Assembly: GCA_034717495.1 (NCBI GenBank)
Contig: JAYELL010000001.1
Location: 66,649-130,648, forward strand
Direction: 5' to 3'
DNA: 64,000 nt
From: Chloroflexota bacterium
GTDB lineage: Bacteria > Chloroflexota > Anaerolineae > JAAEKA01
The notes under the pieces were generated by a model. That model did not search any database, was not told the origin of the DNA, and saw only the letters and a program-made list of their open reading frames with translations. The first letter of the stretch is position 1, and every line of letters starts with the position of its first letter. Below are positions 26,988 through 63,622 of the stretch, piece after piece. Made by a program: the position numbers and the translations under genes.

Positions 26988-28208
26988 CTACGGTGCCCCC
27001 GAACCAGGACCAAGATGCTTCAACATGACAATTGGGTCTGAACCACTGGGGTTGTGGATGGTGACCCCTTCCTGCGCAGCCCGGTAGGAGACGAAGTACT
27101 CGTCGTAGGTCAATTGTCCGAAGCGAATCAAGGCCGGCGTCTCAATGGGCCACCTCTGGGCCGCTGGCTGGGACGACCCGGTCCCCATCGAGCCATGCCC
27201 TTGCACCACGATCAAACCGTAGGGACCGCTGTCCCGAATCGTAACCGTACGCCCTGGCAGAACGGTGAGTTCCTTGGCGGCGAAATATTCGTTGCCGTAA
27301 GTGATCCAGTTCTCCACGTACCCGGCCTCTTTCATCTCCTCCGGCGGTTTCACCGGAAGCGGATTCCTGAAAAATACCGCTTTGAAGTCGGGAATCGTGT
27401 TGATCTCCCAGTCCAGCATGGAAATGATGTAATCCATATCCTGTTTGTGCTTCTCGGGCACATGCATGACCAACTGCTCCCATCCGATGGGCATGTCGTT
27501 GGTCATCGACTCGAACATGGCATAGATATCGCTGGCCCACTGGGGCTCGTAGGTGCAGAGGCTTCCTGGTGCGTGCAACAGGCCCGGCGGTATGTACCAG
27601 CCTGTGCCCGTTTCCAGGCGATAGGCCCTGGACAGGTCGGTAATGCGGTTGTCCCCCTCGTTCCAGATTTCCAGGCAACGGATCACCTGTTCTTTGCTGG
27701 TTCCTGGCTCCAGGCCAAAGAAGGTGTGGGGGAAATCAGCGCCATAGTTGTTGAGTTGCGGCGGAAAGAAATAGGCCTCGGGTTTGGATTTCTGTCCCAC
27801 ATTGGCAGCGTGTTCCTCCATCTGATGCATGTGGTGGGGCAGTGGTCCTTTGTTGTCGAAGAACTTGGAGTAGATGGGCCAGCCGCCGTGTTTCTGCCAC
27901 ATGGCTTCGCCCAATAATTCAGCGCCCTCGTCCGCTACCAGGTCCGCCAACAGAACCCGCTGGGGATCGTCATTTTCCCCAGAAACCGCGTAACTCAAAC
28001 CTTCATTGGGAGTGGTCAACGGGCCGTTGTCCGCCCTGGTAGTGGATGACAACCAGCGCTCATCGATACCGCCCCGATGCGCACCGAAGGCGTAGTAGTC
28101 GTTTGGATGAAGTTTGATACGCCTGCCTGGAATGCAGAATACTCGAGGCACCCAGGTTGGTGCCAGCCGTAGAATACCCTTTCCTTGTTCAAGGATGTTG
28201 TTGGTCAT
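26988..28208 (-). CDS. bicupin-like protein, possibly a type-I mannose-6-phosphate-isomerase-like sugar isomerase
   Basis: Cupin motif 1-like GPLPHHMHQMEEHAANVG (G-x4-HxH-x3-E-x5-G) and motif 2-like GWYIPPGLLHAPG (PxG-x2-H). 406 aa is similar in size to ManA-type PMIs. The functional call is inference. Confidence 0.4.
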   Translation of the reverse strand: MTNNILEQGKGILRLAPTWVPRVFCIPGRRIKLHPNDYYAFGAHRGGIDERWLSSTTRADNGPLTTPNEGLSYAVSGENDDPQRVLLADLVADEGAELLGEAMWQKHGGWPIYSKFFDNKGPLPHHMHQMEEHAANVGQKSKPEAYFFPPQLNNYGADFPHTFFGLEPGTSKEQVIRCLEIWNEGDNRITDLSRAYRLETGTGWYIPPGLLHAPGSLCTYEPQWASDIYAMFESMTNDMPIGWEQLVMHVPEKHKQDMDYIISMLDWEINTIPDFKAVFFRNPLPVKPPEEMKEAGYVENWITYGNEYFAAKELTVLPGRTVTIRDSGPYGLIVVQGHGSMGTGSSQPAAQRWPIETPALIRFGQLTYDEYFVSYRAAQEGVTIHNPSGSDPIVMLKHLGPGSGAP

Positions 28209-28439: not shown

Positions 28440-28790
28440 TCATACCTGACCGAACTGCAGGTTCACCTTGTAATCATGTTGATCGATGATTTCTACCGCG
28501 AACAACTGTTCGTCCCGATCGTACACACCCCAGACCAGGTTTGGATCGATCGGAATCTCTGGTGTACCGGCGCCGGCGAGTTCAATGGTCAGGTGGGGGT
28601 GCCGTCGATGATGTTCGTAATCCAGACCTACAAGGGTAATCGATCCTGTTTGAGCTACGGGAGTCATGGAGCCTGTGCCTTGCTCTACATGAACCGATTT
28701 TCCACCGAAGTTCTGATTGAGCTCCTCGAAGAAAGCTGTCCATTGGGATGCGGGAATCATCCTGGGTTGGTGGGTGGGATCGTGATCCAT
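28440..28790 (-). CDS. small hypothetical protein (~116 aa)
   Basis: ORF only; start placed at the internal Met (MDHDPTHQ..). No recognisable motif. Confidence 0.3.
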   Translation of the reverse strand: MDHDPTHQPRMIPASQWTAFFEELNQNFGGKSVHVEQGTGSMTPVAQTGSITLVGLDYEHHRRHPHLTIELAGAGTPEIPIDPNLVWGVYDRDEQLFAVEIIDQHDYKVNLQFGQV

Positions 28791-28967
28791 AAGATTCTCC
28801 TTTTCGCCGGTAGTATTTTGGGGCCATCGAAGCTGAGCCGTCATGGGCCGGCATCATACCAATTTTACCCAGCTTCGTCGACCCCGCAAGTAGGTTTGCA
28901 TCGGTTGTTTCGCATGACCCGATCCGCCAATGCACCATCGCCCTGTTTCTCTTTTCGCCGCGTCCCT

Positions 28968-29957
28968 CTATTCCAGTGATTTTCGGTACTCCAACCAGGC
29001 CGGTAGTTCCTGGAAACCAAATCGAAGATTCAGCAGAAACATCGGGTTGTCTTCGTGATTGTCAGTACGGATTTCGGGCGGCCCACCTTCGGACGATGTC
29101 AGGGATTTGGCATAGGAGATCGCCTGCACCTTGAGAGCGGTTGCGATACCCTGGCGCCGATAGTCGCGCAGAACGCCGGTTAGCCCTGTATAGAGGATGG
29201 TGTCGGTTGCCTCGCTTGCCCAAAGGTTTGTCAGACCTATGTAGCGGTCTTCGTCGAGCGCAACCAGAAAGCCGTTGGGCATCAGGTTGGGGTTATCTTC
29301 GAGCCTCTTAGCGAAATGTTCGAAGGGTACGGGTGTAAAGTCGTCATGCCACGGGATATCCTGCATGATTATACGATCCAGATCGAATAATCGCCGGAGG
29401 TGGTCGGGATAGATGGCATCCAACTCGCCAAAGGTTCGGATGGTGATACCCGAATCCTGCATGGCCTGAACCACGCCGGAGAACCGCTCAGGCTCAAACG
29501 CTGCCGGGTCCAAAACCGAGCATGGCGAACGGGAGGCCATCTGGAAGCCACGGTCTTCCAGAAACCGTTGGCCTTCCGGCTTGTCCTCCCGGGTGAGGGC
29601 ATCGATTGAACGGGGATCGGAAGGCTGCAGCTCTGCAATAATATGGTCGTAGAGCATCCCGCCGATACCCTGTTGCTGGAAATCTGGAAGGATCAGGATT
29701 TCCAGGTAGTACTTCCGGGGATCGAACGCCCAGGACATGTGGCCATATTCGGCGAACGCAACACACTGAACGGGCTCGGCGGCAATCTTTTCCCGAATCA
29801 CCAACACCCGTCGAAAGAGATGCTCCGGTATCCGTTGCCTGTCCCGGCGTGCCTGGAAGGAGACGTTGACAGGCATATCGGGCCAGATGGCGTTTCGGAT
29901 CGCCACGATGGCCTCGTAATCTTCGGAGCTGCCATTGAAGGGTCTGGTACTGAACAT
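28968..29957 (-). CDS. GNAT family N-acetyltransferase, tandem two-domain
   Basis: Two acetyl-CoA-binding signatures: QQQGIGGMLYDHI and RRQGIATALKVQAISYA. 329 aa is consistent with duplicated GNAT folds. Confidence 0.7.
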   Translation of the reverse strand: MFSTRPFNGSSEDYEAIVAIRNAIWPDMPVNVSFQARRDRQRIPEHLFRRVLVIREKIAAEPVQCVAFAEYGHMSWAFDPRKYYLEILILPDFQQQGIGGMLYDHIIAELQPSDPRSIDALTREDKPEGQRFLEDRGFQMASRSPCSVLDPAAFEPERFSGVVQAMQDSGITIRTFGELDAIYPDHLRRLFDLDRIIMQDIPWHDDFTPVPFEHFAKRLEDNPNLMPNGFLVALDEDRYIGLTNLWASEATDTILYTGLTGVLRDYRRQGIATALKVQAISYAKSLTSSEGGPPEIRTDNHEDNPMFLLNLRFGFQELPAWLEYRKSLE

Positions 29958-30314
29958 CGTTTCCTCCAGTCGAGAATAGATATCCTGTCAGCTGCCTATG
30001 GCAGCATGTCGGAATGTCAAAATGCCAGAACGGGAACAGGAGTTTTCGTAGGTCCGGCTACCAGCCGGACGATCTGGTGTACCAGAGATGTCACGCTGAT
30101 AGCGATGACCTACAAAACTCGCGTTCGCAAATTGGCTTCAGTTTTTTTCACCGGTTCACCGTGTCCTCGTATCGCCGTGTCGGACAAGGGCTTGGATTCC
30201 GATGGGGCCGAACTGACGCCAGACGCGCAGACTTCCGGTCCCGCCAGGAGATCGGAAGTCTGATTGAACGATGGCTTTCAGGCCGGAATCCGATCGGCCT
30301 GCCGGTCTTCGGGA

Positions 30315-31088
30315 TTAGCCCAGATCCTCTGTCGCTGCTGCTGCGCCCAGTTCGGCAGCGCCTTCGGCGATCTCGGCGATTCCTTCAGCCTCAATCTCCG
30401 CGGCAATCTCAGCATCCTCGGCGGCCATTGCCAGCTCGTCGATGCCCTCCAGGCCCAGTAAGAATCCCCCAGCAGCCAGTTCGGCCGCGCGCTCCGAGGC
30501 CAGCTCGGAAGCAGCAATCCGAAGCGCTCCCTCGTCGATCTCCTCAATGCCCAACTCGGCGATGTGCAGACCGGTGGCATCCATTAGTTCTGCCAGGCTC
30601 TGCTGAGCGGCTGATCGCAGAATAACATCCCCGGCGATCTCCTGCAATCTGGCTCCGCGATCACCCAGCACTGCGCTCAACACCGGCATCTCCAGCGCAT
30701 CCACCACATCACCGATGGTCTGAAGCTCTCCCGCCATGCGGCCCAGCTCCAGGCCCCGGTCCAGGTCTCCCAGGCTCATCAGACCAACCGCAGCGCTCAT
30801 GGCGCTGACATCGTCTGAGGCCATCAACAGCTCGGCGCCCTCAGCCAGATCGGTGACCCCGGCCTCACCGACCACATCGGCCAACGCCGCCAGGCGATCT
30901 GCCACGATCTCGGCGTCAACCGCCCTGGTCAAATCGGAGGCGGCGGCCATTGCTTCGGCCACGGCCAGATCGGCCACTTCCTCTCCCAACTCGAGGGTAT
31001 CGAGACCCTCTTCCACCAACTCATCACCTTCTGCGGCTATAAAGGTTGCAGCTGCTTCAGCGGCCGTATCCTTGTCTTTCTTTGCCAT
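30315..31088 (-). CDS. highly acidic Ala/Glu/Leu/Gly-rich low-complexity protein of unknown function
   Basis: 257 aa with ~25% Ala and >20% Glu+Asp, almost no basic residues after the N-terminal MAKKDKD, and degenerate internal repeats (AELxxxG, EIAAEIEAEGIAEIAEGAAELGAAAATEDLG). Good RBS aaaggag. Confidence 0.5.
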   Translation of the reverse strand: MAKKDKDTAAEAAATFIAAEGDELVEEGLDTLELGEEVADLAVAEAMAAASDLTRAVDAEIVADRLAALADVVGEAGVTDLAEGAELLMASDDVSAMSAAVGLMSLGDLDRGLELGRMAGELQTIGDVVDALEMPVLSAVLGDRGARLQEIAGDVILRSAAQQSLAELMDATGLHIAELGIEEIDEGALRIAASELASERAAELAAGGFLLGLEGIDELAMAAEDAEIAAEIEAEGIAEIAEGAAELGAAAATEDLG

Positions 31089-31150
31089 GTTCCATTTTCT
31101 CCTTTTGGAATATTGATTGCCCTCGCAGGCAAGCGAAAACTGATTGAACT

Positions 31151-31648
31151 CTACAAGCCCAGACCTGAACTGAGTTCCGCCAGGGCAGCCTTCTCCTGGT
31201 CACTGACGCGCACGCTGCCGATTCCTAAGAATCCACCCTCGCGTCCCGCCTCGGCCGTCGCCTGAGCGACACCCATTATCCACTTTTTGTAGCCCGTGGC
31301 TTCTTCTGCACTGCCTTTTTCTGCCACCAGGTTGGCGGCTTCTTCGATCTCGGTCAGCATGGCGGCCTTGGTAGCTTCCGGATCCTTCTTCTGCTCGTCG
31401 GTGAGGTCGAAATCCGATTTGGCGTCCTTGTCCTTGGATTTATCCTGGAAATCGGCCACCAATGCACCGACCAGGTCTTGAGCGTCCTCGGGCACGGGCT
31501 GTGCCAGGATCGCCTTGCTCATACCGGCGGTCTCTTTGAATACACTGGTCACGGCCAGATCGGCGATGATAAGATAGGTGCCGGCCAAAATCGGGGCCTG
31601 CATGAGTTGGCCCCACTCTTCCGCGGTATAATCTGTTTTCGTGGTCAC
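31151..31648 (-). CDS. hypothetical protein (165 aa), co-transcribed upstream of the acidic protein
   Basis: ORF with an N-terminal amphipathic or hydrophobic stretch (APILAGTYLIIADLAVTSVF) and a charged Lys/Asp/Glu-rich middle. No family recognised. Confidence 0.45.
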   Translation of the reverse strand: MTTKTDYTAEEWGQLMQAPILAGTYLIIADLAVTSVFKETAGMSKAILAQPVPEDAQDLVGALVADFQDKSKDKDAKSDFDLTDEQKKDPEATKAAMLTEIEEAANLVAEKGSAEEATGYKKWIMGVAQATAEAGREGGFLGIGSVRVSDQEKAALAELSSGLGL

Positions 31649-31933
31649 AATTCTCTCCCTGGTTTGGATGGCGTTGAGGCTTCAGCCGGTTTCGTGTCTG
31701 ACCGACCAAAGCATACTGAACAATTGCCGTTTCGTACATGGATTGCTCCGATTATACCCGCGGCATGCTGATAGCGCAAAAAATCAGTTTCTCAGACCTG
31801 GGTTATTCCCGCAGATAGCGCATAGTCCCTGTGTATTCCCAGGCGGGATTTCATTTGACAGCGCGACACCGCTGTGTTATCATCTCTTTGCAACATCTGT
31901 TCAAGCCTGTTCATCTGTTCAAGTGAGGCGCCG

Positions 31934-32971
31934 ATGCGTTCCGATGCCGACAGGCACACGCTCTTGTACAAGATCGCCAAGGCCTATTACGAGGACGGGC
32001 TCACCCAGCACCAGATCGGTCGACGCTTTAGTCTCTCCCGCGTCAAGGTCTCGCGCCTTTTGCAGGAGGCACGAGATGAACGAGTTGTCCAGATTGCCAT
32101 CGTTTCTTCCATTGACTCCAACGCGGACCTCGAACGTGAACTGGAAGCTCGCTTTGACCTTCTGGAGGCCGTCGTCGTCACCCCTGCGGACTACAGTGCT
32201 CCCGTGATTCTTCAGGAACTGGGTACTGCAGCGGCTAATCATCTGATGCGCTGCCTGCAGGGCAAGGAGATTGTGGCCCTGAGCTGGGGCACTACCCTGC
32301 ATGCCGTGATCGAGGCGCTGCCCGCTCAGAACTGGCCCGATCTGAAGGTCGTGCAGATCCTTGGTGGCGTTGGTGATCCAGAGGTCGAAGTTCATGGCAA
32401 CGATCTCTCCCGCCGGATGGCTCAATCCTTTGGCGCCCAACTTCGTTTCATGCCATCCCCGGGTATCGTTGGCAGCAGGCAAGTGCGCGACGCGTTGATC
32501 GGCGATCCCCAGATTGCGTCAAGCCTGGCATTGGGCCAACGGGCCGACGTGGCGCTGGTAGGCATCGGTGTGCCTATCCCGGGATCGGTGGTCGACCGGG
32601 CAGGTATTCTATCGAAGGATGAGATCGTCGAGTTGGCGAACCTCGCTGCTGTGGGTGACATTGCTCTGCGATTCTTCGACAAAAACGGCCAACCCACCCA
32701 GCACGCGATCAACGATCGTATCGTTGGCCTGGATATCGACCAAATGAGGCGGATACCCCGCAGGATCGGTGTGGCTGGTGGTAGTGACAAACACCAGGCG
32801 ATTGGCGCAGTGCTGCGTGGCGGCCTCGTCAATGTTATCGTGACCGATGAGCGCAGCGCCAGATATCTGCTCACCAGCTCCGGAAAGGCCCCGGATTCAG
32901 CCAACGGGATAGCAGCTCAGGCGACGATTGGCAACACCGTGCGATCGCCTGGCGAACTGGTTCATGGGTGA
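31934..32971 (+). CDS. SorC/DeoR-family sugar-binding transcriptional regulator
   Basis: N-terminal HTH LLYKIAKAYYEDGLTQHQIGRRFSLSRVKVSRLLQEARDERVVQIAI, followed by a ~250-aa sugar-phosphate-binding domain, as in CggR/DeoR(Bsu)/LsrR. Confidence 0.75.
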   Translation: MRSDADRHTLLYKIAKAYYEDGLTQHQIGRRFSLSRVKVSRLLQEARDERVVQIAIVSSIDSNADLERELEARFDLLEAVVVTPADYSAPVILQELGTAAANHLMRCLQGKEIVALSWGTTLHAVIEALPAQNWPDLKVVQILGGVGDPEVEVHGNDLSRRMAQSFGAQLRFMPSPGIVGSRQVRDALIGDPQIASSLALGQRADVALVGIGVPIPGSVVDRAGILSKDEIVELANLAAVGDIALRFFDKNGQPTQHAINDRIVGLDIDQMRRIPRRIGVAGGSDKHQAIGAVLRGGLVNVIVTDERSARYLLTSSGKAPDSANGIAAQATIGNTVRSPGELVHG

Positions 32972-62536: not shown

Positions 62537-63622
62537 ATGAGTGAGGACTTTGTGATTCTGGAACAAGAGCGGTTGTATCTGCAATCCTCTATGAACGGCG
62601 TGTCTCGTTCCTTCGCCATCGTGGTGCCAAATCTTGAACCACCGCTTGATGACTATTTTGCCACCGCCTATCTTATCTGCCGGGTTGTCGATAACATCGA
62701 AGACTGCACCCACCCGTTTTACTGGCAGCAGCAGCGTTTTAGCGAATTCCACCAACTGCTTTCCCATCCTGAATCGGCCCGAGAGATCCTGGCTGTCTGG
62801 GATCAGGAATCCTGGCCAGGCTTGACGATCGAAGAGGTGGCCATGATGGGAACGCAGTACGGTGCGCCACTGTGGAAGATCTACGCGGCCATACCCGAAA
62901 GCGAAAGAGCGTCGATAGCCAAATGGGCTGGGACGATGGCAGATGGCATGTGTCGCGTTGAAGATCCTGATTTGGTGCCTCGGCTGATCGACCATGATGG
63001 TGTGTCGATGCTGGCCGACGCAGAGGACTATAATGGTTACTGCTATTATGTTGCCGGGACGGTCGGGCAAATGGCCACGGAACTGGCGATCTCCCATTAC
63101 CAGTTTCCAGATGACGTTGCGACCCTGCTTTTCGATAACGCCGAGGCCTGTGGACGCAGTCTGCAAAAGACCAATATCGTCAAGGATTTCGTCAAGGATC
63201 TGGAACGGGGTGTTTCCTACCTTCCCGATCAATGGCTACGACAGACCGGCTATAGCCCATTACGCCTGGCGGGAGCCCCGGTGGCGTGGAAGTATCAGGT
63301 GCTTGACGATGTCATGCAAGAGCTTCGCGACGCCACCCGTTATCTCGTTTCACTGCCATACAGCGCTTCCGGATATCGTATGGCCGCGCTGCTATGTCTG
63401 CTTCCAGCCTACCAAACACTTTTGCTGGCAGCGAAAAGGCAGGACAAACTGTTTACGGAGAAACATCAGATCAAGATTTCTCGCACGACCATGGCAAAAT
63501 GCAAGTGGGATGCCAAATCCATGATTGCCGATAATGAGGCTGTTCGACGTTACAGCCAGCGGATGGAGACGGCGGTTGCCGCTGCCTTTGGCGCAGCCGT
63601 TCCTGCCCCTGGGCGTCTGTAA
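62537..63622 (+). CDS. squalene/phytoene synthase family protein
   Basis: YCYYVAGTVG motif (canonical YCYxVAGTVG) and first Asp-rich region VVDNIEDC; 361 aa. Confidence 0.8.
   Translation: MSEDFVILEQERLYLQSSMNGVSRSFAIVVPNLEPPLDDYFATAYLICRVVDNIEDCTHPFYWQQQRFSEFHQLLSHPESAREILAVWDQESWPGLTIEEVAMMGTQYGAPLWKIYAAIPESERASIAKWAGTMADGMCRVEDPDLVPRLIDHDGVSMLADAEDYNGYCYYVAGTVGQMATELAISHYQFPDDVATLLFDNAEACGRSLQKTNIVKDFVKDLERGVSYLPDQWLRQTGYSPLRLAGAPVAWKYQVLDDVMQELRDATRYLVSLPYSASGYRMAALLCLLPAYQTLLLAAKRQDKLFTEKHQIKISRTTMAKCKWDAKSMIADNEAVRRYSQRMETAVAAAFGAAVPAPGRL

What the first reader, a model, noticed from the sequence alone, without database searches (positions are those of the whole stretch)
30315..31648. 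Two-gene minus-strand pair encoding an unknown 165-aa protein and an extremely acidic A/E/L/G low-complexity 257-aa protein
The downstream gene encodes a protein with estimated pI around 3-3.5. It contains almost no basic residues after its first 7 residues, carries degenerate AE-rich repeats, and lacks a signal peptide or TM segment. The upstream partner has an amphipathic or hydrophobic N-terminal segment and a KD/E-rich middle.

Such pairs are reminiscent of phasin-like, gas-vesicle accessory, DNA-mimic or intrinsically disordered scaffold proteins. I cannot place it in a family. It sits divergent to the SorC-regulated operon and downstream of a GNAT gene.
Basis: seen in the sequence. Interest (0 to 1): 0.5.

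Follow-up and report, generated by a model that had tools for sequence, protein, structure and literature searches.

The report
Two conserved uncharacterised acidic helical proteins
Both genes are real and belong to two unrelated, uncharacterised bacterial protein families that sit side by side only in this genome; the very acidic one is a folded helical protein, not a disordered one, and elsewhere it usually travels with small membrane stress proteins.

Summary
Two minus-strand genes lie at 31151-31648 (165 aa, "B165") and 30315-31088 (257 aa, "A257", pI 3.5, net charge about -47).

The interpretation needs correcting on three points.
- A257 is not a low-complexity or disordered protein. It has a well-conserved, predicted all-helical core (residues ~50-205) with 24 invariant residues, four of them Arg. 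Only its two terminal helices are variable and A/E-rich. Its family has no Pfam, NCBIfam or PDB match. Every labelled member is from Chloroflexota (Anaerolineae), and dN/dS is about 0.1.
- The pair is not conserved. None of 80 B-family loci has an A gene within 10 kb, and none of 56 other A-family loci has an adjacent B gene.

The recurrent partner of the A family is a DUF1269 glycine-zipper membrane protein (17 of 56 loci), along with other small membrane or stress genes. Rare fusions of both A and B domains to DUF4332 link them loosely.

The function is inferred only: a stress or ion-homeostasis accessory protein. Interest is modest.

The parts
31151..31648 (-). B165: 165-aa acidic (pI 4.2) helical-bundle protein of a widespread uncharacterised family. 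GTG start; the N-terminus MTTKxDY matches the family consensus.
30315..31088 (-). A257: 257-aa polyanionic (pI 3.54, charge -47) all-helical protein. It has a short basic N-terminal tip (MAKKDK), variable A/E-rich N- and C-terminal helices, and a conserved core at residues ~50-205.
   Evidence: ORF. Composition and pI. Alignment A1. 486 cluster representatives at E<=1e-3. AF2 all-helical, pLDDT 72. dN/dS ~0.1.
31089..31150 (-). 62-nt B165-A257 spacer carrying the A257 ribosome-binding site (AAGGAG at 31099-31104). No terminator-like site, so co-transcription is likely (inferred).
   Evidence: Sequence read. The terminator scan found none in 29900-32000.
31751..31779 (-). Candidate promoter for the B165-A257 unit: TTGCGC, 17-nt spacer, TATAAT, about 100 nt upstream of the B165 start. 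This is inferred. It falls below the scan tool's threshold because only 3 of 6 positions match in the -35 hexamer.
   Evidence: Sequence. Not reported by the consensus scan.
30229..30301 (-). Two G+C-rich hairpins 14-86 nt after the A257 stop codon, without a U tract. They may mark the end of the transcript or stabilise it, separating the unit from the GNAT gene 357 nt downstream.
   Evidence: RNA fold of 30190-30320(-): -54 kcal/mol, z = -2.5 against shuffles. Coordinates.

Best explanation
**Shown**
- The locus holds two genuine genes that are probably co-transcribed. They come from two unrelated, uncharacterised protein families and are adjacent only in this Chloroflexota genome.
- A257 belongs to an Anaerolineae-centred family of cytoplasmic, strongly acidic, all-helical proteins of ~230-300 aa. 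Each has a short basic N-terminal tail, two long variable A/E-rich helices, and a conserved folded core.
- Elsewhere, genes of this family lie on the same strand as, and usually directly after, a DUF1269 gene. DUF1269 is a glycine-zipper membrane protein with a CutA1-like soluble domain. Other frequent neighbours are a Trp-rich ~100-aa three-TM protein and LOR, META, YtxH, SHOCT, DUF308 and ion-channel or transporter genes.
- B165 belongs to a solitary family present in many phyla. It is predicted with high confidence to be a compact seven-helix bundle, and its closest solved fold is one I recall being classed as TerB-like.

**Inferred mechanism**
- A257 is a stress or ion-homeostasis accessory protein that works at the cytoplasmic face of small membrane proteins. 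Its conserved core would be the docking or oligomerisation module. Its polyanionic helices would act as a high-capacity, low-affinity cation (Mg2+/Ca2+/K+) binding or electrostatic shielding surface.
- In this genome B165, possibly a TerB-like acidic metal-binding bundle, occupies the upstream slot that DUF1269 normally fills.
- Both A and B domains also occur fused to the DUF4332/H3TH module, which is otherwise tethered to DUF1269, DUF308 or other membrane anchors. This suggests they belong to the same loose functional network.
For: **Reality and conservation**
-.

**Folded, not disordered**
- The conserved core has 24 invariant positions, and its conservation profile peaks at residues 50-120.
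- AF2 predicts an all-helical protein.

**Not a conserved pair**
- No A gene lies within 10 kb of any of the 80 B-family genome loci.
- Of 61 A-bearing loci, only the window has an adjacent B gene.
- A and B profiles are unrelated (hhalign probability 0.1).

**A-family partners**
- DUF1269 occurs in 17 of 56 distinct A loci. In 12 of the 39 loci with >=500 nt of upstream sequence it is immediately upstream.
- DUF1269 density is about 7 per 100 kb in A loci against 0.26 per 100 kb in B loci.
- The Pfam census of 128 neighbours is led by DUF1269 (9) and LOR (6), followed by AI-2E, BrkB, META and SHOCT.
- L093, whose A gene is 70% identical to A257, reads YtxH-A-META-DUF1269-mem100 on one strand.
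- The Trp-rich membrane protein abuts A in L001, L092, L009 and L129.

**DUF1269 description**
- A glycine zipper in a CutA1-like fold (bioRxiv 10.1101/2024.07.07.602159).

**Network links**
- P0193 is an A domain fused to DUF4332, seen on 3 contigs.
- L091 carries a DUF4332+B-domain protein 4 kb from an A gene.
- DUF1269+DUF4332 fusions lie 65 nt and 4 kb from B genes in L021 and L007.

**B165 fold**
- AF2 pLDDT 88.8, pTM 0.84.
Against: - No experiment or direct computation shows cation binding, membrane association or an A-B or A-DUF1269 complex. The mechanism rests on charge, neighbours and rare fusions.
- The window holds no DUF1269, mem100, YtxH or channel gene. Its surroundings are sugar-metabolism genes.
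- About two thirds of A loci show no DUF1269 within the sequence available, and many contigs are only 1-2 kb long.
- The A-DUF4332 fusion is one cluster among 135 DUF4332 hits.
Confidence: 0.5

Rival explanations
1. A257 is a membrane-protective or scaffolding coiled-coil protein, working like PspA/Vipp1/ESCRT-III or like YtxH/LEA-type stress proteins. Helical hairpins would polymerise or coat stressed membranes together with small membrane partners. The negative charge would be incidental to cation handling.
For: - A257 is all-helical and of PspA-like length, with long confident terminal helices.
- Neighbours include SHOCT, Phage_holin_4_2, DUF308, YtxH and small TM proteins, which from my own knowledge are typical of envelope-stress loci.
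Against: - There is no PspA_IM30 or Snf7 Pfam match.
- A257 lacks a basic or amphipathic membrane-binding helix beyond MAKKDK. A charge of -47 would repel anionic membranes unless cations bridge them.
- No PspB, PspC or LiaI-type partner is seen.
Confidence: 0.2
2. A257 is a nucleic-acid mimic or electrostatic regulator of a DNA- or RNA-binding partner. For example, it could mask the H3TH/DUF4332 domain or another basic protein, acting as a polyanionic decoy.
For: - It has extreme, conserved acidity: family pI 3.45-4.6.
- An A-domain fusion to the HhH-containing DUF4332 domain exists.
- The neighbour p159 has an Arg-rich tail.
- A divergent paralogue with an Arg-rich N-terminus occurs in L090.
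Against: - There are no PHROGs, PADLOC or Pfam anti-restriction matches, and no phage or mobile-element context.
- At 257 aa it is larger than classic DNA mimics (my own knowledge).
- The dominant partners are membrane proteins, not DNA-binding proteins.
- DUF4332 proteins are mostly membrane-tethered, so DNA binding by that module is itself unproven.
Confidence: 0.1
3. One reading: an intrinsically disordered or low-complexity scaffold, or a phasin or gas-vesicle accessory pair. The two genes would act together as a dedicated two-component unit.
For: - The composition is A/E/L/G-rich, and the C-terminal 40 residues are low in complexity.
- The two genes are adjacent with a 62-nt gap.
- A YtxH-like gene sits next to an A gene in 3-4 loci. 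From my own knowledge, some genomes label YtxH as a gas-vesicle protein.
Against: - The core is conserved and predicted to be helical.
- There are no phasin or Gvp family matches, and no pha or gvp neighbours.
- The pair is not conserved in 136 other loci.
Confidence: 0.05
4. One or both ORFs are spurious reading frames in GC-rich DNA.
For: - The region has 60-64% GC and long ORFs in several frames.
- The exact 257-aa product is not in the 15-billion-protein collection.
Against: - Hundreds of homologues align without indels across the core.
- dN/dS is about 0.1, and codon-position GC matches the neighbours while the overlapping frames do not.
- Ribosome-binding sites are good.
- Protein accessions MEA3334335.1 (GNAT) and MEA3334337.1 (B165) leave exactly one number between them, which implies A257 is annotated in the source record (inference).
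Confidence: 0.01

Closest known systems
TerB-like helical bundles (Pfam TerB PF05099; solved examples 2ou3 COG3793 and 2h5n PG_1108). Closest known fold for B165.
   Same: - Both are small (~130-165 aa), acidic, all-helical bundles.
- B165 has two segments with conserved acidic residues: ..IIAD-x8-E39.. and ..AEAGRE137GG...VS-x2-E152-x3-L... These resemble the twin acidic motifs that I recall for TerB, which is a lead and not a test.
   Different: - No TerB Pfam match appears in B165 or in 39 relatives, and Foldseek finds nothing significant.
- B165 carries a family-specific invariant EGGFLGIG loop.
- B-family genes are solitary and are not in ter operons.
DUF1269 (PF06897) gene neighbourhoods. 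Closest known context for A257.
   Same: A-family genes are embedded in DUF1269-containing clusters of small membrane or stress genes. DUF1269 proteins are described as glycine-zipper proteins with a CutA1-like fold, and they neighbour a long coiled-coil protein in the Microcystis ccyA locus.
   Different: - A257 is not homologous to DUF1269 (hhalign probability 0.1).
- The window has no DUF1269 gene.
- DUF1269 itself has no established function.
PspA/IM30/Vipp1 and ESCRT-III helical-hairpin membrane-stress proteins
   Different: - There is no sequence-family match.
- A257's charge is far more negative, and it has no amphipathic basic N-terminal helix.
- The structural matches are generic long-helix hits.
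High-capacity acidic cation-buffer proteins (calsequestrin-type function) and acidic biomineralisation proteins
   Same: They share a very high density of carboxylates (23% D+E, charge -47), and A-family neighbourhoods are rich in channels and transporters.
   Different: - The fold is different and there is no homology. The resemblance is functional only and untested.
- There are no EF-hand or other known Ca-binding motifs.
PopZ (JGI's name for a B-family member, P0130)
   Same: Both are small acidic cytoplasmic proteins.
   Different: - No PopZ-family Pfam match appears in B165 or its relatives.
- B165 is predicted to be a compact bundle. From my own knowledge, PopZ instead has a Pro-rich disordered linker with a C-terminal oligomerisation helix.
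- The name looks like a misannotation.

Membership tests
Phasin (PF05597 / PF09361) | Match to a phasin profile HMM | tested here: not met
   The Pfam scan of A257 and B165 at E<=1 returned no phasin family.
Phasin (PF05597 / PF09361) | Genomic association with PHA synthesis genes (phaC/phaR) | tested here: not met
   None appears among the top 25 families of 128 A-family neighbours, among 150 B-family neighbours, or in the window's flanking genes.
Gas-vesicle accessory proteins (GvpF/L, G, J, K, O ...) | Match to a Gvp profile, and presence of gvpA/gvpN nearby | tested here: not met
   There are no Gvp Pfam hits and no gvp genes among the neighbours. The only related finding is a YtxH-like gene next to A in 3-4 loci.
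DNA-mimic / anti-restriction proteins (Ocr, ArdA and similar) | Homology to a known mimic, or a phage, plasmid or defence-island context | tested here: not met
   PHROGs, PADLOC and Pfam show no relevant hit. The neighbours are chromosomal membrane, stress or metabolic genes.
DNA-mimic / anti-restriction proteins (Ocr, ArdA and similar) | Surface carboxylates spaced like DNA phosphates | not testable with these tools
Intrinsically disordered / low-complexity scaffold | Lack of a conserved folded domain; compositional rather than positional conservation | tested here: not met
   There are 24 invariant and 25 nearly invariant columns, concentrated in residues 50-205. Helices are predicted throughout. 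Core entropy is 3.0-3.5 bits. Only the terminal helices are compositionally conserved.
TerB-like (PF05099 and related), for B165 | Match to the TerB profile HMM | tested here: not met
   TerB is not among the hits for B165. It is also not among the 25 families shown, of 43 matched at E<=1, for the 40 aligned family members.
TerB-like (PF05099 and related), for B165 | TerB-like helical-bundle fold | tested here: inconclusive
TerB-like (PF05099 and related), for B165 | Metal binding by conserved acidic residues | not testable with these tools
   Invariant E39, E137 and E152, and nearly invariant D6, E11, E116 and E133, are present. Binding cannot be computed here.
PspA/IM30 / ESCRT-III, for A257 | PspA_IM30 or Snf7 profile match; consecutive alpha1-alpha2 hairpin | tested here: not met
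PopZ, for B165 | PopZ profile match; Pro/acid-rich disordered linker plus C-terminal oligomerisation helices | tested here: not met
   There is no Pfam match, and the confident model is a compact bundle.
DUF327 (PF03885), for B165 | Score above Pfam's gathering threshold | tested here: not met
   B165 scores 15.4 bits against a cut-off of 25.8, with E 0.019. Only 2 of 40 relatives match.
Conserved two-gene operon (A family + B family) | The adjacency recurs in other genomes | tested here: not met
   None of 80 B loci has an A gene within 10 kb. None of 56 other distinct A loci has an adjacent B gene. One locus (L091) has a DUF4332+B-domain gene 4 kb away on the opposite strand.
DUF1269-associated gene cluster (context of the A family) | A DUF1269 gene within about 1 kb of the A gene on the same strand | tested here: not met
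   This is met in 15 of 56 other A loci. It is not met in this window, which has no DUF1269 homologue in its 64 kb.

The most novel reading that the evidence does not exclude
A-family proteins are the soluble polyanionic subunit of a previously undescribed stress or ion-buffering module in Chloroflexota. The module would be built from interchangeable small parts: DUF1269 glycine-zipper proteins, a Trp-rich three-TM protein, the DUF4332/H3TH domain, and B-family (possibly TerB-like) bundles. The A core would dock onto the membrane partner, and the acidic helices would store or buffer divalent cations. In this genome the B165-A257 operon would be a variant in which a soluble metal-binding bundle replaces the membrane partner.
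Probability: 0.2. Interest if true: 0.55.

Novelty: new variant of a known kind. Interest (0 to 1): 0.3.

Why it matters
If the inference holds, it would give a first functional handle on three unannotated or DUF-level families that are abundant in environmental Chloroflexota, including Promineifilaceae-like filaments of sludge, soils and sediments:
- the A family;
- the B family, present in at least 351 species genomes;
- DUF1269, together with the Trp-rich membrane protein.

It would also add a new type of polyanionic helical protein to the repertoire of bacterial ion and envelope stress responses.

In practical terms, the work shows that the striking composition is a family trait under purifying selection, not an artefact. 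It also shows that the apparent two-gene unit should not be propagated as an operon-level annotation. As it stands, this is a well-documented pair of conserved hypothetical proteins, not a surprising new system.

Tried and rejected
**Searches with no useful match**
- Pfam, NCBIfam, PADLOC and PHROGs scans of both proteins gave nothing usable.
- Pfam scans of 40 B-family members gave only scattered sub-threshold hits.
- PDB sequence-profile searches with both family alignments gave nothing for A and only E~0.7 noise for B.
- Rfam on 29800-32000 gave only a sub-threshold chance hit.
- There are no small conserved ORFs in the 357-nt gap downstream of A257.

**Structure comparisons**
- The afdb50 fold library was unavailable.
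- Foldseek of the B165 model against the PDB found no significant hit.

**Homology tests between the parts**
- A and B families are not related.
- A and DUF1269 are not related. The 81% BLAST coverage between P0193 and a DUF1269+DUF4332 protein shrank to the DUF4332 domain once composition was corrected.
- Weak B-profile hits to the N-termini of DUF4332 proteins turned out to be TM segments.

**Repeats**
- Profile-profile signals for internal repeats in A257 were only weak. There are no tandem DNA repeats.

**Neighbourhoods**
- The census of B-family neighbours found no recurrent partner; the maximum was 4 of 150.

**Annotation in the source record**
- The exact 257-aa sequence and six shorter start variants are absent from the protein collection.
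- The look-up of the identical B165 protein's contig failed.

**Other**
- The first related-loci scan with the full A alignment failed for lack of a conserved 7-10-column stretch. It was rerun with a 10-sequence subset.
- Literature searches for DUF1269, DUF4332, YtxH and TerB-like/2H5N gave one useful description of DUF1269 and nothing on the A or B families.
Full report
**1. What is in the sequence**

- A257 (30315-31088) starts at the first in-frame start codon, an ATG. An AAGGAG Shine-Dalgarno sequence lies 10 nt upstream at 31099-31104.
- B165 (31151-31648) starts at a GTG behind GGGAGAG. Its N-terminus, MTTKTDY, matches the family consensus MTTKxDY.
- The genes are 62 nt apart with no terminator-like site between them.
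- A TTGCGC-17 nt-TATAAT element lies about 100 nt upstream of B165 (31751-31779). It falls below the scan tool's threshold.
- Two G+C-rich hairpins without a U tract follow the A257 stop codon (30229-30301). The fold is -54 kcal/mol, z = -2.5.
- Co-transcription of B165 and A257, separately from the GNAT gene 357 nt downstream, is therefore likely but inferred.

**2. Are the genes real?**

Yes.
- A257 has 49 word-indexed homologues, up to 74% identical. It has 486 50%-identity cluster representatives at E<=1e-3 in 1.84 billion proteins, 159 of them at E<=1e-30.
- B165 has 137 homologues. One is 100% identical: MEA3334337.1, locus tag U9R25_00390, from a Chloroflexota MAG.
- Against five homologous genes, A257 shows dN 0.19-0.24 and dS 1.4-3.2, so omega is about 0.1. 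For B165, dS is saturated at dN 0.35-0.38.
- Both genes have the GC1>GC3>GC2 profile of their neighbours. The overlapping ORFs in other frames do not.
- The exact 257-aa product is absent from the protein collection. However, the GNAT and B165 proteins carry accessions MEA3334335 and MEA3334337. One annotated protein therefore lies between them, presumably A257 (inference).

**3. The acidic protein**

The protein is not a low-complexity or disordered polypeptide.
- The 27-sequence alignment shows 24 invariant and 25 nearly invariant columns, concentrated in residues ~50-205. The consensus reads SDLTRAVDAxVVADRL...GDLERGLEL.RLAGEL...MPVL.AVL.DRG..LQ.IA.DVILR...GE.EIDEG.LR.
- The invariant residues include R55, D58, R65, D80, E121, M134, P135, R144, E183, E186, G187 and R190.
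- So the claim of "almost no basic residues" misses the point. The nine Arg residues present are mostly conserved positions.
- Conservation per 10-residue block is 0.6-0.86 in the core, against 0.3-0.5 in the first 40 and last 10 residues. Sequence entropy is normal in the core, and only the last ~40 residues are compositionally simple.
- No tandem repeats exist at the DNA level. Profile-profile comparison of segments gives only a weak hint of an internal duplication: residues 49-76 against 105-132 at 50% probability.
- AlphaFold2 predicts six helices and nothing else. Mean pLDDT is 72 and pTM 0.47. The variable terminal helices are confident (pLDDT >90 for residues 11-50 and 210-250). The conserved core is poorly resolved, which may reflect the shallow alignment used.
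- There is no TM-like segment. There is no match in Pfam, NCBIfam, PADLOC, PHROGs or PDB sequences.
- Homologues carry a short Lys/Arg/Ser-rich N-terminal tail of variable length ahead of the acidic body. In A257 this is reduced to MAKKDK.
- All family members that carry a taxonomic label are Anaerolineae/Chloroflexota.

**4. The upstream protein**

B165 (pI 4.2) belongs to a different family; hhalign probability against the A family is 0.1.
- The family is much wider than A's. They come from Chloroflexota, Acidobacteriota, Actinomycetota, Methylomirabilota, Deinococcus, Planctomycetales and proteobacterial MAGs.
- Its alignment has invariant W12, E39, A132, E137, G138, G139, L141, I143, G144, V148 and E152, with a signature AEAGREGGFLGIGSVRVS-x2-E-x3-L.
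- AlphaFold2 gives a confident seven-helix bundle (pLDDT 88.8, pTM 0.84).
- I therefore treat "TerB-like acidic bundle, possibly metal-binding" as the best lead and not as a membership.
- JGI's name "PopZ" for one member is not supported by profile or architecture.

**5. Is it a pair?**

No.
- None of 80 B-family loci with up to 10 kb of flank contains an A homologue.
- Among 61 A-bearing loci (56 distinct besides the window), only the window has an adjacent B gene.
- This includes L093, whose A gene is 70% identical to A257.
- B-family neighbours show no recurrent partner: at most 4 of 150 sampled neighbours share a family.

**6. What the A family does travel with**

- A DUF1269 gene occurs in 17 of 56 distinct A loci.
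  - In 12 of the 39 loci with at least 500 nt of upstream sequence, it lies immediately upstream on the same strand, typically 50-130 nt away.
  - Its density is about 7 per 100 kb in A loci, against 0.26 per 100 kb in the 1.17 Mb of B loci.
- LOR follows A in 6 of 28 assessable loci.
- An unannotated Trp-rich ~100-aa three-TM protein occurs in 10 loci and sometimes abuts A.
- META, YtxH, SHOCT, Phage_holin_4_2, DUF308, AI-2E and BrkB genes, K+ and MscS channels, bestrophin-like proteins, CLC and SulP/STAS transporters also recur.
- L093 reads YtxH-A-META-DUF1269-mem100 on one strand.
- DUF1269 has been described as a glycine zipper embedded in a CutA1-like ferredoxin fold (bioRxiv 10.1101/2024.07.07.602159). 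It is not homologous to A.
- None of these partner genes is present in the 64-kb window, whose surroundings are sugar-metabolism genes.

**7. An indirect A-B link**

- One A-family protein, P0193, seen on three contigs, carries a complete C-terminal DUF4332 (HhH/H3TH) domain.
- In L091 a DUF4332+B-domain protein lies 4 kb from an A gene.
- DUF1269+DUF4332 fusions lie 65 nt (L021) and 4 kb (L007) from B genes, and a DUF4332 gene lies 1.8 kb from an A gene in L121.
- DUF4332 is mostly a C-terminal module. It is joined through an acidic A/E/P-rich linker to a 4-TM anchor, DUF1269, DUF308 or TM7S3-like domains.
- A and B are thus both rare, soluble members of the set of modules that combine with DUF4332 and DUF1269. 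This makes their adjacency here plausibly meaningful, though the numbers are small.

**8. Most likely mechanism (inferred)**

A257 is a cytoplasmic polyanionic helical accessory protein of a stress or ion-homeostasis gene set.
- Its conserved core serves as a docking or oligomerisation domain.
- Its acidic helices act as a cation-binding or electrostatic surface near small membrane proteins.
- B165 may be a metal-binding bundle. In this genome it occupies the slot usually held by DUF1269.

The descriptive parts are well supported; the mechanism is not tested. Rivals are:
- a PspA- or LEA-like membrane-protective scaffold;
- a nucleic-acid mimic or regulator of basic partners;
- spurious ORFs, refuted.

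**9. Verdict**

This is a correct and careful observation of an unusual composition, but the result is a pair of conserved hypothetical proteins and not a new system.
- The A family is undescribed in curated libraries, and its DUF1269 association is a useful annotation lead.
- Interest is modest at 0.3.
- In terms of novelty, it is an undescribed family within the familiar class of small acidic helical stress-locus proteins.

Noticed in passing
window 26988-28208 (-): A 406-aa ORF with no Pfam match at E<=1, although it is long and has the codon-position GC pattern of a gene. It is another unannotated family candidate.
   Followed up: no
window 28440-28844 (-): A 134-aa ORF between the 406-aa gene and the GNAT gene. 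It has a sub-threshold DUF5335 match (E 0.001, 19.3 bits against a cut-off of 27).
   Followed up: no
window 31855-31883 (+) and 31874-32971 (+): A strong sigma-70-like site (TTGACA, 17-nt spacer, TATCAT, with an extended TG; 11 of 12 positions) lies inside the 5' end of the mechanically called SorC ORF. The 365-aa form is not in the protein collection. The real SorC start is probably the downstream MRSD... ATG.
   Followed up: partly
window 31135-31149 and 30255-30269 (- strand reading GTTCAATCAG...): A 15-nt motif, 87% identical between its two copies, follows both stop codons. It lies directly after B165 and 46 nt after A257. It could be chance or a shared 3' element.
   Followed up: no
L001 6774-7076; L092 5785-6090; L009 5861-6178; L129 553-852; L109 476-772 and others: A Trp-rich ~100-aa protein family with three predicted TM segments and no Pfam match (MCCAFL...WWLIQP...WWIWP...). 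It recurs on the same strand next to A-family genes in about 10 loci and is absent from all 80 B-family loci.
   Followed up: partly
L001 7188-7667; L092 4414-4884; L113 3697-4182: A conserved ~157-aa protein without a Pfam match, ending in an Arg/Asp-rich tail (HRRDRRDDRRDRRR). It lies next to A-family genes in three loci.
   Followed up: partly
P0318-P0436 (proteins); L019 4997-6007; L021 10557-11318: DUF4332 is annotated by JGI as "flap endonuclease-1-like 5' DNA nuclease". It is mostly the C-terminal module of membrane-anchored proteins: a 4-TM, DUF1269, DUF308 or TM7S3-like anchor, then an acidic A/E/P-rich linker, then H3TH. A membrane-tethered HhH domain is odd for a nuclease annotation.
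   Followed up: partly
L092 4947-5687, 5512-5781 and 9954-10687; L090 6615-7229: A-family paralogues cluster: there are two full copies plus a fragment within 10 kb in L092. L090 has a divergent paralogue with an Arg-rich N-terminus two genes downstream of the canonical copy.
   Followed up: partly
P0004 (L009 5001-5987) and P0013 (L090 5001-5933): These database gene calls have unrelated C-terminal tails, from a frameshift or read-through. The tail of P0004 overlaps the Trp-rich membrane-protein gene. P0299, P0289, P0265 and P0370 also look like chimeric calls.
   Followed up: partly
window 62537-63622 (+) and L001 3393-4469: A squalene/phytoene-synthase-family gene in the window is 57% identical to the one that lies 1.5 kb upstream of the A homologue in L001. 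In the window it is 31 kb from A257.
   Followed up: no
window 28968-29957 (-): The downstream acetyltransferase (MEA3334335.1) contains two GNAT domains in tandem.
   Followed up: no
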